Made by a program: the position numbers and the translations under genes
Origin: a virus
Lineage: Duplodnaviria; Caudoviricetes
IMG/VR virus record: IMGVR_UViG_3300017700_000738
Coordinates: 6,466 to 70,465 of that record
Direction: 5' to 3' (one strand)
DNA length: 64,000 nucleotides
Shown: positions 12,858 to 19,609 of the stretch, one piece after another
Layout: each line of letters starts with the position of its first letter
How positions within the stretch are numbered: the first letter of the stretch is position 1
Notes under the pieces: generated by a model
Told to the model about the DNA's origin: nothing
Database searches by the model: none
What the model saw: only the letters and a program-made list of their open reading frames with translations

Positions 12858-13202
12858 ATGAACCTTAATGGCAAGCAGATCATCTCCATTTCCATCGCGG
12901 TTCTCGGCGTGTTGATGGTCTCCACCACCCAGCTGACGGACCTGTTCGGAGCCGGCGTCGCACAGAAGATCGTGTCTCTCGCCGCGCTGCTGAATACGGG
13001 TCTCGGCTCCGTCATGGCCGTGATTTCCAGCACGTCCCAGCAGTTCAAGGACGTCAGCAACACTACCGGTGTGGAACCGCTCCGCGTGAACGCGCAGGCC
13101 AGCCCGCAGCTGGCCGCACTCGCCGTCGATCCAAAGGTCGACAACATCGCCCCGACGCGCGCCGATATGGAAGCGGTCGAGGCCATCGCAAAAGGAGTTT
13201 GA
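12858..13202 (+). CDS. Putative holin
   Basis: 114 aa, two hydrophobic segments, follows endolysin. Confidence 0.5.
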   Translation: MNLNGKQIISISIAVLGVLMVSTTQLTDLFGAGVAQKIVSLAALLNTGLGSVMAVISSTSQQFKDVSNTTGVEPLRVNAQASPQLAALAVDPKVDNIAPTRADMEAVEAIAKGV

Positions 13203-15432: not shown

Positions 15433-15506
15433 GCCCTTGAAGCATTGAGGTGATGCACCGCTCTCGTAAAGCGGAGAGCCGGTTTCGATTCCCGGCATGG
15501 GCGCCA
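15433..15506 (+). tRNA. trnT: tRNA-Thr(CGU), imperfect T-stem
   Basis: CCGCT-CTCGTAA-AGCGG; ends GCCA. Confidence 0.75.
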
Positions 15507-15507
15507 A

Positions 15508-15588
15508 GTAGGGGGAAACATGGGTTCGAATCCCATCTGGAGCCACCGGTGCACCGGTCCAGTCGTCTAGTGGTTGGGACGCTCCCGC
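15508..15588 (+). ncRNA. Circularly permuted tRNA-like RNA 1 (YrlA-like core, no anticodon loop)
   Basis: Order T-arm (ATGGG-TTCGAAT-CCCAT), acceptor strands joined by linker, D-arm (GTCT-AGTGGTTG-GGAC); ends pair GGGGG/CTCCC. Confidence 0.7.
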
Positions 15589-15595
15589 AATTCAC

Positions 15596-16144: not shown

Positions 16145-16219
16145 GGACCCGGAGTAGGAAAGTAGCACGCTGGCCTTTTAACCCATGCGAACTCGGGGCA
16201 GTACCGAGCGGGTTCACCA
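16145..16219 (+). tRNA. trnK: tRNA-Lys(UUU), divergent
   Basis: GGACCCG/CGGGTTC acceptor; loop CTTTTAA; T-loop GGCAGTA. Confidence 0.7.
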
Positions 16220-16224
16220 ATCAT

Positions 16225-16534: not shown

Positions 16535-16686
16535 TTTCGAGAGCCGGTGGGGTCTCGCAAGAGCTTGGAGATGGGCGGTTCGATTCCCCCTCGCGCGGTG
16601 TAAAAGCCAAGCGGTCGTCTAACGGCTAGGATACCAAGATGCACACCGGACTAGAACGAGGCGTCATGACCCACGCCTACTCGAAA
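16535..16686 (+). ncRNA. Circularly permuted tRNA-like RNA 2 with extended closing helices (YrlA/Y-RNA-like)
   Basis: TTTCGAG/CTCGAAA, CCGGTG/CACCGG and CTTGG/CCAAG enclose T-arm, looped acceptor stem and D-arm. Confidence 0.7.
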
Positions 16687-16692
16687 CACTTA

Positions 16693-17534: not shown

Positions 17535-17610
17535 TGTCACCGAAAAGTCGCCGCCCTTTAAGGCGTGTGGCCTGCGAACGGGCTCGCGAGATCGAGAGAT
17601 AGGGGCACCA
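17535..17610 (+). pseudogene. Degenerate type II tRNA-like element
   Basis: CGCC-CTTTAA-GGCG, GCCTG-CGAA-CGGGC variable arm, ends GCACCA; D- and T-arms do not fold. Confidence 0.45.
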
Positions 17611-17617
17611 TTTTTTT

Positions 17618-17703
17618 CCCTCAGTATCCCGCTAAGGACGCGGAGCCGACTGTAAATCGGAGGCCTGCGGGCTGGCGAGGATCGTTACCTCGATGGGGGA
17701 CCA
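17618..17703 (+). tRNA. trnY: tRNA-Tyr(GUA)
   Basis: CCGA-CTGTAAA-TCGG, variable arm, A73. Confidence 0.8.
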
Positions 17704-17704
17704 T

Positions 17705-17778
17705 GCGGACATAGGTTAATGGTAGACTTGGAGTGTGCCACACTTCGTGCGGGAGTTCGATTCTCCCTGTCCGCGCCA
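17705..17778 (+). tRNA. trnG: tRNA-Gly(GCC), G73
   Basis: GGAGT-GTGCCAC-ACTTC; GCGGACA/TGTCCGC. Confidence 0.8.
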
Positions 17779-17796
17779 ATTAAGAGGTTTGATCGC

Positions 17797-17943
17797 ATGA
17801 GATGCTTTTATGGCCCCGGAAACGATGATGATCGTACTTGCGGTCCTTGCGAGGCATGCGGCCGAGAGGCCGTCTTGGATCAATCCTATTCCGGTAAGAA
17901 TCGCGGGAAATTTGTCTGCGATGAATGCCGTGACGCCCAGTAA
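17797..17943 (+). CDS. Small zinc-finger-like protein
   Basis: AAGAGGT SD; MRCFYGPGNDDDRTCGPCEACGREAVLDQSYSGKNRGKFVCDECRDAQ (two CxxC). Confidence 0.7.
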   Translation: MRCFYGPGNDDDRTCGPCEACGREAVLDQSYSGKNRGKFVCDECRDAQ

Positions 17944-18010
17944 GCTAATCTATTGAAAGCGCCGAGCTGAAGCCTCGGAGAGCGTGGGGAGGAACCACGA
18001 CTGGGCACCA
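17935..18010 (+). tRNA. trnF: tRNA-Phe(GAA), divergent loops
   Basis: GCCCAGT/ACTGGGC; CCGAG-CTGAAGC-CTCGG; CGTGG-GGAGGAA-CCACG. Confidence 0.75.
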
Positions 18011-18081
18011 TTTTCGGAGGTTCTATGGAAAAGGGGACCTTCAGCGATCACCGGTGCTATTGCTGCGCACCGGAGCCAATT

Positions 18082-18153
18082 GGGGAGCGCGCCGGGGCGC
18101 TGCCGAACCTTGCAAGTTTGGCCGGGAGGGATCAACACCCTCGCTCTCCACCA
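18082..18153 (+). tRNA. trnA: tRNA-Ala(UGC), reduced D-arm
   Basis: G3:U70; GCCGAAC-CTTGCAA-GTTTGGC. Confidence 0.75.
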
Positions 18154-18155
18154 AG

Positions 18156-18234
18156 TTCGGTCAAGCCAAGCAAGGTGCAAGGACCCGCCTGTTAAGCGGT
18201 GATTAGCCCGGTTCGATTCCGGGGACCGGAGCCA
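18156..18234 (+). tRNA. trnN: tRNA-Asn(GUU)
   Basis: CCGC-CTGTTAA-GCGG; U1, G73. Confidence 0.9.
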
Positions 18235-18238
18235 ATAT

Positions 18239-18313
18239 GCTGTCGTCGTCTACTGGCTAGGATGCTGGGTTCTCAACCCGGTGAAGCGGGATCGAAACCC
18301 GCCGACAGCGCCA
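18239..18313 (+). tRNA. trnE: tRNA-Glu(CUC)
   Basis: CTGGG-TTCTCAA-CCCGG. Confidence 0.9.
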
Positions 18314-18314
18314 T

Positions 18315-18396
18315 GCACGCGTATCCCCCCTGATTACGAATCAGGACAAAGGTAACCGGAAGGCAGATGCGGGTTCGAATCCTGCCGCGTGCTCCA
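18315..18396 (+). tRNA. trnR: tRNA-Arg(ACG) with non-canonical topology
   Basis: Perfect acceptor, CCTGA-TTACGAA-TCAGG and T-arm; only 7 nt between acceptor and anticodon arm. Confidence 0.7.
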
Positions 18397-18401
18397 ATCA
18401 T

Positions 18402-18479
18402 CTGCGTGTAGCTCAGTCTGGTCAGAGTACGTCGTTCGGAACGACGGGGTCGCAGGATCGAAGCCTGCCACGCAGACCA
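18402..18479 (+). tRNA. trnP: tRNA-Pro(CGG)
   Basis: CGTCG-TTCGGAA-CGACG; C1:G72. Confidence 0.9.
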
Positions 18480-18483
18480 TTAC

Positions 18484-18557
18484 GCCCGCTTCGTATAACG
18501 GCAGTACACCGCTCTCTGAAAGCGGTAGCGTTGGATCGACACCAGCAGCGGGTGCCA
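18484..18557 (+). tRNA. trnQ: tRNA-Gln(CUG)
   Basis: CCGCT-CTCTGAA-AGCGG. Confidence 0.9.
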
Positions 18558-18562
18558 TTTAC

Positions 18563-18636
18563 CACGGTGTGGCCGAGTGACTAGGCAGCGGATTGCAACC
18601 CCGCGTAGGCCAGTTAAAATCTGGCCACCGTGTCCA
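18563..18636 (+). tRNA. trnC: tRNA-Cys(GCA)
   Basis: Loop TTGCAAC; U73. Confidence 0.85.
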
Positions 18637-18637
18637 T

Positions 18638-18714
18638 GCTTCCGTAGCTCAGTGGACAGAGCGCCGGTCTTCTACACCGGGTCGTCGGGTGTTCGAATCA
18701 TCCCGGAAGCGCCA
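18638..18714 (+). tRNA. trnR: tRNA-Arg(UCU)
   Basis: CCGGT-CTTCTAC-ACCGG. Confidence 0.9.
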
Positions 18715-18717
18715 TTT

Positions 18718-18794
18718 CTCGCCGTAGCTCAACTGGACAGAGCCACCGCCTCCTAAGCGGTTGCGTGGGCGTTCGAGTCGTCCCGGTGAGGCCA
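18718..18794 (+). tRNA. trnR: tRNA-Arg(CCU)
   Basis: ACCGC-CTCCTAA-GCGGT. Confidence 0.9.
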
Positions 18795-18799
18795 ACCAT

Positions 18800-18887
18800 G
18801 GAAGGTCAACCAGCAAGGCGCTGGCGGCCCCTGCTAAGGGCATGGCGCCGGCAACGGCGTGGTGATCGTGTCTCCGGCCTTCCGCCA
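18800..18887 (+). tRNA. trnS: tRNA-Ser(GCU), long variable arm
   Basis: GCCC-CTGCTAA-GGGC; GCGCCG-GCAA-CGGCGT. Confidence 0.85.
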
Positions 18888-18891
18888 TTTC

Positions 18892-18965
18892 GCGTGCTTA
18901 GTTTAGAGGTAAAATTCTGCGCTTCCAACGCAGCGTCCCGGGTTCGATTCCCGGAGCCCGCGCCA
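18892..18965 (+). tRNA. trnG: tRNA-Gly(UCC), G73
   Basis: CTGCG-CTTCCAA-CGCAG. Confidence 0.85.
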
Positions 18966-18966
18966 T

Positions 18967-19041
18967 CCTGTGTTCGTCTACTGGCTAGGATCACGCTCTT
19001 TCACAGCGTAGAAGCGGGATCGATACCCGCACACAGGGCCA
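18967..19041 (+). tRNA. trnE: tRNA-Glu(UUC)
   Basis: ACGCT-CTTTCAC-AGCGT. Confidence 0.9.
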
Positions 19042-19046
19042 ATTGA

Positions 19047-19117
19047 TGCGGCACCTCCGGTGAGGGGTGGGGCCTTTGAAGCCCTGCAGCTCGGTTCGAC
19101 ACCGAGTGCCGCTGCCA
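19047..19117 (+). tRNA. trnQ: tRNA-Gln(UUG)
   Basis: GGGGC-CTTTGAA-GCCCT; 1-72 mismatch. Confidence 0.8.
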
Positions 19118-19137
19118 GCATCTCCGCTGGTACGCGA

Positions 19138-19208
19138 CCCGATGCCTCCGGCGAGGACACCGCTCTCATAAGGCGGTCAGGGTGCGTCGGCAGCACCCTT
19201 CGGGACCA
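19138..19208 (+). tRNA. tRNA-Met or Ile2 (CAU), divergent T-loop
   Basis: CCGCT-CTCATAA-GGCGG; T-loop GTCGGCA. Confidence 0.75.
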
Positions 19209-19213
19209 TTCAT

Positions 19214-19289
19214 GCCAACTAGGCCGATCAGGTGATGGCGCGGGTTTGTGGAGCCCGAGAGGCTGGATCGATACCAGCAGTTGGTACCA
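19214..19289 (+). tRNA. trnH: tRNA-His(GUG), A73, no G-1
   Basis: CGGGT-TTGTGGA-GCCCG. Confidence 0.9.
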
Positions 19290-19293
19290 ATAT

Positions 19294-19368
19294 GCGAGCG
19301 AGGTGTTACGGCAGCATCCCGGTCTCCAAAACCGTGGGGAGCAAGTTCAATTCTTGCCGCTCGTGCCA
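19294..19368 (+). tRNA. trnW: tRNA-Trp(CCA)
   Basis: CGGT-CTCCAAA-ACCG; G73. Confidence 0.9.
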
Positions 19369-19369
19369 A

Positions 19370-19609
19370 TCAGTCGAAGCCGTACATGATCTTGCGCGCG
19401 TCTTGCATCGTTGTGGCCTCAAAATCGGTTCCGTCATCGAACGCGAATCCGAATACGATGTTTTCTTTGCCGTCCGCGATCCGATTGCTGACGCGATGTC
19501 TTTGGTGGGCGCTCATGCCGTCAAATGCGGCCTTGATCGCATCCATGTGGCGAGGGCTCCCCACATAGACCTTCCTTCTGAACAAAACAGCAGGCTGCTT
19601 GGCCATCAC
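19370..19609 (-). CDS. Hypothetical protein
   Basis: 79 aa, last gene of the leftward operon. Confidence 0.55.
   Translation of the reverse strand: MMAKQPAVLFRRKVYVGSPRHMDAIKAAFDGMSAHQRHRVSNRIADGKENIVFGFAFDDGTDFEATTMQDARKIMYGFD

What the first reader, a model, noticed from the sequence alone, without database searches (positions are those of the whole stretch)
18315..18396. tRNA-Arg(ACG) with the anticodon arm apparently nested inside the D-arm
Seen: acceptor 5' strand, TA, TCC, CC, then directly the anticodon arm, then ACAAAGGTAACC (a D-loop-like string with GG), GGA, AGGCAGAT, T-arm. TCC(18324)/GGA(18358) equals the D-stem of the neighbouring Tyr. So the D-stem would enclose both the anticodon hairpin and the D-loop. 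Acceptor, anticodon and T stems are perfect, arguing against decay. Inference: a rearranged cloverleaf that could still form an L-shape; it is the only CGU/CGC/CGA reader in the array.
Basis: partly seen in the sequence, partly recalled or inferred. Interest (0 to 1): 0.8.

Follow-up and report, generated by a model that had tools for sequence, protein, structure and literature searches.

The report
Rewired phage arginine tRNA (ACG)
This 79-base phage gene is very probably a working arginine tRNA whose D-arm pieces lie in a different order from the textbook cloverleaf; it belongs to a large phage family that tRNA finders miss and that I found described in no paper.

Summary
The element at 18315-18393 (CCA at 18394-18396) is real. 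It has perfect acceptor, anticodon (ACG) and T arms, but ARAGORN and Rfam's tRNA model both miss it.

It is not a one-off. Pattern scans of viral contigs gave about 190 distinct sequences with the same layout. A covariance model built from 24 other members scores the window's copy at 89.7 bits (E 2e-25).

C18325 and C18326 pair with G18352 and G18351 (126/126 and 125/126 paired across the family). T18324 pairs with A18361. The stretch 18353-18360 is an eight-base bulge that matches D-loop positions 13-20, with G18, G19 and A20.

Position 20 follows the anticodon: A20 in all arginine members, U20 plus A73 in nearly all isoleucine members. These are the known ArgRS and IleRS determinants.

Members sit inside phage tRNA arrays and usually supply an anticodon that the array otherwise lacks. 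Here that covers CGU/CGC/CGA, 68% of the phage's arginine codons.

Eight earlier notes of this scan report the same family on other genomes. Seven literature searches and one review found no published description. Expression, charging and the three-dimensional fold are untested.

The parts
18315..18321 (+). Acceptor stem, 5' strand (pairs with 18386-18392)
   Evidence: 7/7 pairs in the window. All seven pairs show compensatory changes in relatives.
18322..18323 (+). U8 A9 equivalents (TA)
   Evidence: TA in 84/84 members where it was not imposed.
18324..18326 (+). D-helix strand running towards the anticodon (equivalent to positions 22-24): T18324 pairs with A18361, C18325 with G18352, C18326 with G18351
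   Evidence: Inner pairs 126/126 and 125/126 paired, four pair types each. Outer pair 22/26 paired in the window's length class (UA, AU, CG). 0 of 20000 shuffles reach these values.
18327..18328 (+). Two C bases between the D-helix and the anticodon stem (positions 25-26 equivalents; C18327 faces A18350)
   Evidence: This third pair forms in only 5/53 of the window's subfamily, but in 100% of subfamily A.
18329..18345 (+). Anticodon arm: 5-bp stem, 7-base loop, anticodon ACG at 18336-18338
   Evidence: All five pairs covary.
18346..18350 (+). Purine-rich connector from the anticodon stem to the D-helix return strand
   Evidence: 4-5 bases in all members. No pairing found.
18351..18352 (+). D-helix return strand (positions 11-12 equivalents), pairs with C18326 and C18325
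18353..18360 (+). D-loop-like 8-base bulge TAACCGGA: U13, A14, A15, C16, C17, G18, G19, A20
   Evidence: GGA was present in 9/9 members found without imposing it and in isolates found by BLAST. A20 goes with Arg anticodons and U20 with Ile anticodons. The base at 15 is linked to the base before the T stem.
18361..18361 (+). Outer D-helix base, pairs with T18324
18362..18368 (+). Variable-loop-like connector ending in AT; T18368 is the position-48 equivalent
   Evidence: AT ends this segment in 84/84 and 123/126. The exceptions have G at position 15.
18369..18385 (+). T arm: 5-bp stem with loop TTCGAAT
18386..18396 (+). Acceptor 3' strand (18386-18392), discriminator U73 (18393), encoded CCA (18394-18396)
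   Evidence: CCA is encoded in 95/126 members.

Best explanation
A functional phage elongator tRNA-Arg with anticodon ACG, presumably edited to ICG by host TadA. It would read CGU, CGC and CGA. Its acceptor, T and anticodon arms are ordinary, but the core is wired in a different order. The segment that normally lies between positions 9 and 22 (5' strand of the D stem plus the D loop) sits after the anticodon arm instead. The result is a three-way junction. U8-A9 lead straight into a strand (18324-18328) that runs down into the anticodon stem. After the anticodon hairpin the chain climbs back, pairs with that strand (G18351, G18352, then A18361), and throws out an 8-base bulge (18353-18360) carrying A14, A15, G18, G19 and A20. 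A 7-base connector ending in U48 then leads to the T stem.

Shown here: the gene, its family, the base pairs (by covariation), the link between position 20 and the anticodon, and the array context.

Inferred: the bulge makes the usual elbow contacts (G18/G19 with the T loop, A15 with U48, U8 with A14) so that an L shape forms; ArgRS charges the RNA through A20 and C35; the RNA works on the ribosome.
For: 1. Family. About 190 distinct members were collected in all. The nearest relative is only 85% identical.
2. Membership. Model R1, built without the window's copy, scores it 89.7 bits, E 2e-25. The next best hit in the window scores 31 bits.
3. Pairs., as listed under parts. These pairs rank just behind the anticodon-stem and T-stem pairs in a mutual-information scan, though that set had been pre-selected for them.
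4. Strand length. The strand from the first linker base to the end of the anticodon 5' strand is 10 bases, as for positions 22-31 of a normal tRNA (105 of 126 members).
5. Identity. With A forced at position 20, the well-formed hits were 94 Arg anticodons and one GAT. With non-A forced, no Arg anticodon appeared; the hits were Ile-type plus one Val-type TAC. With position 20 left free, Ile(GAT) members had U20 in 26/28 and A73 in 28/28. Bacterial Arg determinants are A20, C35 and U/G36; Ile determinants include U20, U21, U12-A23 and A73 (PMC9976931).
6. Tertiary link. A15 goes with U48 in 123/123. Seven distinct G15 variants have C48 (3), G48 (2) or U48 (2).
7. Context. Median 11 ARAGORN tRNAs in the same locus and median 23 bases to the nearest tRNA. 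A canonical Arg tRNA with the same anticodon occurs in the same locus in only 4 of 126 cases.
8. In this window there is 1 base after the CCA of tRNA-Glu and 5 bases before tRNA-Pro. The array has no other CGU/CGC/CGA reader, and those codons make up 68% of Arg codons in 50 long ORFs.
Against: There are no expression, charging, editing or decoding data for any member. The D-like helix is only three pairs here, and C18327 faces A18350. Thermodynamic folding alone does not predict the helix (z-score only -1.77). The discriminator is U73, whereas E. coli ArgRS prefers A/G73 (U73 is also listed for bacteria in PMC9976931). The D-loop motif was part of most search patterns, so its conservation is partly by construction; the unbiased samples are small (9 sequences, a few isolates). 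Four loci, including Microbacterium phage Zooman, also carry a canonical copy with the same anticodon, so the rewired copy may do something beyond filling a gap. The three-dimensional fold is inference only.
Confidence: 0.8

Rival explanations
1. One reading: a D stem TCC(18324-26)/GGA(18358-60) that encloses both the anticodon hairpin and a D loop containing G18351-G18352.
For: The three pairs can be drawn in this one sequence. In 53 relatives they are possible in 36, 48 and 42 sequences, because the linker is mostly TCC.
Against: There is no compensatory change. GGA is invariant, and every linker change breaks this pairing while being compensated at the two bases 5' of the loop motif. The last base of GGA switches to U in the isoleucine branch along with the anticodon, not with the linker.
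Confidence: 0.04
2. A decayed or rearranged tRNA pseudogene with no function.
For: Standard finders reject it. The fold z-score is weak.
Against: About 190 distinct relatives in phages of Actinobacteria and Alphaproteobacteria and in many metagenomes keep every stem through compensatory changes. CCA is encoded, the spacing matches that of neighbouring tRNAs, and the anticodon is otherwise missing from the array.
Confidence: 0.03
3. A tRNA-like RNA that is made and perhaps charged, but whose main role is not decoding. Examples: a decoy for a host tRNA-cutting defence enzyme, or a sponge or primer.
For: The unusual core could change recognition by enzymes that read the D arm. Four loci also carry a canonical copy with the same anticodon. 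Phage tRNAs are known to counter anticodon nucleases (my own knowledge; not tested here).
Against: Position 20 and the discriminator track the anticodon exactly as synthetase identity rules require. In 122 of 126 cases the same locus holds no canonical Arg tRNA with that anticodon. A decoy would need neither property.
Confidence: 0.1
4. A simple D-armless tRNA of the mitochondrial kind: the 23 bases after the anticodon arm are an unstructured long connector.
For: There is no hairpin in 18346-18368. The layout acceptor, short linker, anticodon arm resembles D-arm-lacking mitochondrial tRNAs.
Against: Covarying pairs link the 5' linker to this region. An invariant D-loop-like motif carries G18, G19 and an identity base at position 20. 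There is a 15-48 association.
Confidence: 0.03

Closest known systems
Canonical bacterial and phage tRNA-Arg(ACG/ICG), Rfam RF00005; for example the ordinary copy in Microbacterium phage Zooman
   Same: 7-bp acceptor stem, 5-bp T stem with a TTCGAAT loop, 5-bp anticodon stem with a YUACGAA loop, U8, A14, R15, G18, G19, A20, Y48, encoded CCA, and a place in a tRNA array.
   Different: The 5' D-stem strand and the D loop lie after the anticodon arm, not before it. The junction is three-way, not four-way, and the D loop is a bulge. RF00005 and ARAGORN do not call it.
D-arm-lacking mitochondrial tRNAs (nematode tRNAs, mammalian mt-tRNA-Ser(AGY); review PMC7609411)
   Same: The anticodon arm follows the acceptor stem after a short linker. 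They work without a D hairpin.
   Different: Those tRNAs have lost the D loop and the G18/G19 elbow contacts and are shorter. This family keeps a D-loop motif and a D-like helix in a new position and has normal length. That review mentions no viral or rearranged case.
Circularly permuted tRNA genes of the red alga Cyanidioschyzon merolae (from my own knowledge)
   Same: The order of tRNA segments in the gene differs from the cloverleaf order.
   Different: There the transcript is circularised and recut to give an ordinary tRNA. Here no cut-and-join can restore the normal order without losing the anticodon, and the 5' and 3' ends are the normal ones.
tRNAs with 8/4 or 9/3 acceptor/T branches (allo-tRNAs; PMC5389517)
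   Same: Non-standard tRNAs found in metagenomes and phages by searching outside the standard model.
   Different: Those keep the cloverleaf order of arms. Only stem lengths change.
Viral tRNA-like structures of plant RNA viruses, such as the turnip yellow mosaic virus TLS (from my own knowledge)
   Same: An L shape that synthetases accept, built with different strand connectivity.
   Different: Those are 3' ends of viral genomes with a pseudoknotted acceptor stem, and they are not decoders. This is a free-standing gene with a normal acceptor stem and an anticodon.

Membership tests
Canonical cloverleaf tRNA (Rfam RF00005) | 7-bp acceptor stem, discriminator, 5-bp T stem with a 7-base T loop | tested here: met
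Canonical cloverleaf tRNA (Rfam RF00005) | 5-bp anticodon stem, 7-base loop with U33 and purine 37 | tested here: met
   loop at 18334-18340
Canonical cloverleaf tRNA (Rfam RF00005) | D hairpin between positions 9 and 26 | tested here: not met
   Only 5 bases separate A9 from the anticodon stem
Canonical cloverleaf tRNA (Rfam RF00005) | Score at or above the gathering score (29 bits); called by ARAGORN | tested here: not met
   No plus-strand tRNA hit at E up to 10. ARAGORN gives no call and of 84 relatives. RF00005 reaches threshold for 3 of 14 relatives, at 32-39 bits.
Rewired-core phage tRNA-Arg/Ile family (unnamed; seen repeatedly in this scan) | Layout: acceptor, UA, 5-6 base linker, anticodon arm, 6-8 bases, UAAYYGGN motif, 4-10 bases ending AU, T arm | tested here: met
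Rewired-core phage tRNA-Arg/Ile family (unnamed; seen repeatedly in this scan) | Linker bases 2 and 3 pair with the two bases 5' of the loop motif; linker base 1 pairs with the base after the motif in this length class | tested here: met
   C18325-G18352, C18326-G18351, T18324-A18361
Rewired-core phage tRNA-Arg/Ile family (unnamed; seen repeatedly in this scan) | Significant score against a covariance model built from other members only | tested here: met
   R1: 89.7 bits, E 2e-25, model positions 1-79
Rewired-core phage tRNA-Arg/Ile family (unnamed; seen repeatedly in this scan) | Lies in a phage tRNA array | tested here: met
Substrate of bacterial ArgRS (arginine identity set) | A20, C35, G36 or U36; A/G73 or U73 | tested here: met
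   A18360, C18337, G18338, U18393. Identity set from PMC9976931. This shows sequence only.
Substrate of bacterial ArgRS (arginine identity set) | Actual aminoacylation with arginine | not testable with these tools
   Needs an in vitro charging assay or a charged-tRNA assay
Substrate of TadA (A34 to I34) | Anticodon stem-loop with U33-A34-C35-G36 | tested here: met
   Loop at 18334-18340. The editing itself cannot be tested here.
D-arm-lacking mitochondrial-type tRNA | No D-loop motif and no D-like helix | tested here: not met

The most novel reading that the evidence does not exclude
The transposed D segment is an adaptation, not a frozen accident. It would make these arginine and isoleucine tRNAs invisible or resistant to a host (or phage) factor that reads the ordinary D arm and core, such as a tRNA-cutting defence nuclease or a tRNA decay or modification pathway. 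The phage could then keep decoding while ordinary tRNAs are attacked. This would also explain why some phages carry a rewired and a canonical copy of the same anticodon side by side.
Probability: 0.2. Interest if true: 0.9.

Novelty: new variant of a known kind. Interest (0 to 1): 0.8.

Why it matters
The cloverleaf order of arms is treated as universal for cytoplasmic-type tRNAs. A large family kept by selection, in which half of the D arm sits after the anticodon arm yet every tertiary and identity base is retained, would be a second natural way to build the L-shaped adaptor.

It makes several questions testable. Which core contacts do ArgRS, IleRS, EF-Tu, RNase P, TadA and the ribosome really need? 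It offers a new scaffold for orthogonal tRNA design.

In practice, phage tRNA inventories are incomplete or wrong. The element is unannotated in 26 CbK-like Caulobacter phages, in Zooman and in Cp1R7A-A1, and is annotated as tRNA-Phe in Mildred21. Codon-coverage arguments for phages therefore need a model for this family.

Tried and rejected
1. Close relatives of the array in published phages: blastn of 17600-19400 found only scattered single-tRNA hits and nothing over the element.
2. Related loci through the neighbouring 1001-aa protein: no relative found.
3. Single-sequence folding predicts acceptor, anticodon and T arms but no D-like helix, with z-score -1.77. It cannot decide between the folds.
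4. A MAFFT alignment of all 85 sequences (A1) put two subfamilies out of register by one column around the loop motif. I did not use it for pair counts. Length-matched gapless alignments A2-A6 were used instead.
5. A third inner pair (18327 with 18350): formed in only 5/53 of the window's subfamily, so it is not claimed here. It is real in subfamily A.
6. The idea that the scaffold is arginine-only: rejected. An isoleucine branch exists.
7. A cellular origin: in one genome per species of bacteria and archaea, only 7 of 119 pattern hits were well formed. Six of those lie in dense arrays of 12-18 tRNAs on metagenome-assembled contigs.
8. ARAGORN's tRNA-Arg(gcg) at 13057-13140 as a second CGN reader: rejected.
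9. Seven literature searches plus one review found no description. The library lacks most subscription journals, so this shows absence of evidence only.

Full report
**What is in the window.** Bases 18315-18396 read, in order:
- a 7-base acceptor strand;
- TA;
- five bases (TCCCC);
- a perfect 5-bp hairpin with a 7-base loop holding ACG;
- 23 bases;
- a perfect T arm with a TTCGAAT loop;
- the complementary acceptor strand, U73 and CCA.

The element starts one base after the CCA of tRNA-Glu (18239-18313) and ends five bases before tRNA-Pro (18402-18479). It lies in an array of 28 plus-strand tRNAs called by ARAGORN. ARAGORN does not call it. Rfam's tRNA model gives no plus-strand hit even at E up to 10. 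Folding the single sequence gives the three perfect arms and nothing else. The window comes from a 70,465-base IMG/VR virus record rated complete. No published phage is close to it.

**It is one of a large family.**
- A first scan asked only for the ACG loop at an abnormal distance from the T loop. It found the same layout in a 203-kb viral contig and in CbK-like Caulobacter phages. There the element is present in 26 GenBank records and annotated in none of those inspected.
- A looser scan without any D-loop motif gave nine members, all with GGA preceded by TAA (eight) or TAG (one).
Of 90 distinct matches, 84 had a 6-7-pair acceptor stem (all but three 7/7) and intact anticodon and T stems. 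ARAGORN called 1 of these 84.
- Rfam's tRNA model reached threshold for 3 of 14 members tested, at 32-39 bits, against about 30-74 (mostly above 40) for their ordinary neighbours.
- BLAST found further members in cultured phages. These are Streptomyces phages Mildred21 (annotated tRNA-Phe(gaa), although the loop reads as Arg UCG), Braelyn and others; Microbacterium phage Zooman (unannotated, about 70 bases after an ordinary tRNA-Arg(ACG)); and Mesorhizobium phage Cp1R7A-A1 (unannotated).
- In one genome per prokaryotic species, the same pattern gave 7 well-formed members among 119 hits. Six of them sit in arrays of 12-18 tRNAs on metagenome-assembled contigs. The family is therefore essentially phage-borne.
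- A covariance model built from 24 members without the window's copy scores the window's element at 89.7 bits (E 2e-25) over all 79 positions. The next hit in the window, an ordinary tRNA, scores 31 bits. The nearest relative is 85% identical.

**The fold, from covariation.** None of the search patterns constrained the linker, the bases before the loop motif, or the bases after it.
- In 126 members the second linker base pairs with the base just 5' of the motif in 126/126 (CG, AU, GC, UA). The third linker base pairs with the next base in 125/126. Shuffling gives 75 and 67, and 0 of 20000 shuffles reach the observed values.
- On the 53-sequence alignment that includes the window, these are columns 11-38 (53/53) and 12-37 (52/53), with 9 and 10 double changes.
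- In the window's length class the first linker base pairs with the base after the motif: UA 12, AU 7, CG 2, unpaired 4. The wider count is 22/26 against 12.4 expected.
- In a subfamily with six-base linkers this outer helix has three pairs, including A9. The D loop is then clearly a bulge in a continuous five-pair helix.
- In another subfamily the inner helix has three fully compensated pairs.

For the window the pairs are T18324-A18361, C18325-G18352 and C18326-G18351, with 18353-18360 as the bulge.

**Reading this against an ordinary tRNA.** The strand from the first linker base to the end of the anticodon 5' strand is 10 bases in 105 of 126 members, like positions 22-31. The return strand is followed by U, A, A, Y, Y, G, G, A, which matches positions 13-20. 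In effect, positions 10-21 have moved from between 9 and 22 to a place after position 43.

Two features fit the usual tertiary pairs:
- U8 and A9 are invariant where not imposed (84/84).
- The base before the T stem is U whenever position 15 is A (123/123). Of seven distinct G15 variants, three from different subfamilies have C there, two have G and two have U. This is the pattern of the 15-48 Levitt pair.

That the bulge reaches the T loop and an L shape forms is my inference. No tool here models RNA in three dimensions.

**Identity.** A scan without an anticodon but with A at position 20 gave ACG, UCU, UCG and CCU, all arginine, plus one GAU. Prompted by that exception and by earlier notes of this scan, I searched for isoleucine loops with position 20 left free. 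The 28 members found had U20 in 26 and A73 in 28. With non-A forced at position 20, the well-formed hits were UAU, GAU and CAU plus one UAC, and none had an arginine anticodon. The pooled counts are:

| Anticodon type | Position 20 | Discriminator (73) |
|---|---|---|
| Arginine (ACG 94, UCU 23, UCG 7, CCU 4) | A in all 128 | mixed (U, G, A) |
| Isoleucine (UAU 38, GAU 22, CAU 2) | U in 60 of 62 | A in all |

A20 with C35 is the main bacterial arginine identity set. U20, U21, U12-A23 and A73 belong to the isoleucine set (PMC9976931). An RNA that was not charged would have no reason to obey these rules.

**Use in the array.** Members have a median of 11 ARAGORN tRNAs in the same locus and lie a median 23 bases from the nearest one. 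A canonical arginine tRNA with the same anticodon is present in the same locus in only 4 of 126 cases. In this window the other arginine tRNAs are CCG, UCU and CCU. The minus-strand 'Arg(gcg)' call at 13057-13140 has no Rfam support and looks like a false positive. CGU, CGC and CGA make up 68% of arginine codons in 50 long ORFs. This ORF set is rough, because spurious ORFs are likely at 61% G+C.

**Known or new.** Rfam 15 has no family for it. Seven full-text searches and a 2020 review of non-canonical tRNAs gave no description. Subscription journals are mostly outside that library. This scan has met the family before: eight earlier notes on other genomes describe a phage arginine (and isoleucine) tRNA with a rearranged D arm, and one was re-checked with 'what was seen stands'. 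I reached the same reading before opening those notes, and I tested their isoleucine claim here.

New in this report are:
- the assignment of the window's own pairs;
- the finding that the D loop is a bulge closed by an outer pair or helix;
- the 15-48 association;
- the test with position 20 forced or left free;
- the rejection of the TCC/GGA stem.

**Verdict.** The element is most likely a working tRNA-Arg(ACG) with a non-cloverleaf core (confidence 0.8). What remains untested is expression, charging, editing, decoding and the fold itself. Why phages keep this wiring is open. An adaptive reading, escape from a factor that recognises the ordinary D arm, is possible but unsupported (about 0.2).

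Noticed in passing
window 15507-15595: Between tRNA-Thr(cgt) and tRNA-Thr(ggt) lies a stretch that reads as a tRNA 3' half (anticodon-stem strand, T arm, acceptor strand), then a short palindromic linker, then a 5' half (acceptor strand, D arm, anticodon-stem strand). The two halves are complementary. Model R1 gives a weak hit at 15460-15544 (24.6 bits).
   Followed up: no
window 17613-17702: A tRNA-Tyr(GTA)-like gene with a long variable arm and a TCC/GGA D stem is called by neither ARAGORN nor Rfam. Other gaps in the array (16145-16224, 16535-16692, 17535-17612, 18795-18891, 19042-19213) also hold tRNA-like sequence that the finders miss.
   Followed up: no
window 13057-13140 (minus strand): ARAGORN's 84-base tRNA-Arg(gcg) lies inside overlapping ORFs, has no T-loop consensus and gets no Rfam tRNA hit at E up to 10. 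It is probably a false positive.
   Followed up: yes
L191:5521-5849 (minus strand; viral contig IMGVR_UViG_3300035661_000143, 40.9 kb): A bacterial class A RNase P RNA (146.8 bits, gathering score 100) lies inside a viral contig, next to a tRNA array that carries four rewired arginine tRNAs. A phage-borne RNase P RNA beside unusual tRNAs deserves a look.
   Followed up: no
L360:395-470 (Streptomyces phage Mildred21, MF155946.1 91367-91442): GenBank annotates this as tRNA-Phe(gaa). Read with the family's layout, the loop gives anticodon TCG (Arg), with A20. This is a likely misannotation caused by a shifted loop.
   Followed up: partly
L361:393-470 (Microbacterium phage Zooman, OK040793.1): An unannotated rewired tRNA-Arg(ACG) lies about 70 bases downstream of an annotated ordinary tRNA-Arg(acg). 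Both versions of one anticodon sit side by side. The same holds in L178 and L213 (ACG) and, for anticodon UCU, in L304.
   Followed up: partly
L012:7193-7277 (Caulobacter phage CcrRogue): A tRNA-Arg(CCG) with a 3-bp D stem and a 17-base D loop. ARAGORN misses it and it is unannotated in CcrRogue, but it is annotated in CcrBL10.
   Followed up: no
Loci L511-L730 (viral contigs): An isoleucine branch of the same rewired scaffold, with anticodons UAU (38), GAU (22) and CAU (2), plus one UAC (valine-type). It has U20 and A73 throughout, and many members lack an encoded CCA.
   Followed up: partly
Alignment A5 (subfamily A), columns 15 and 31: In this subfamily the first anticodon-stem pair (27-43 equivalent) is a U-U mismatch in 21 of 24 sequences, so the stem has four Watson-Crick pairs.
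   Followed up: no
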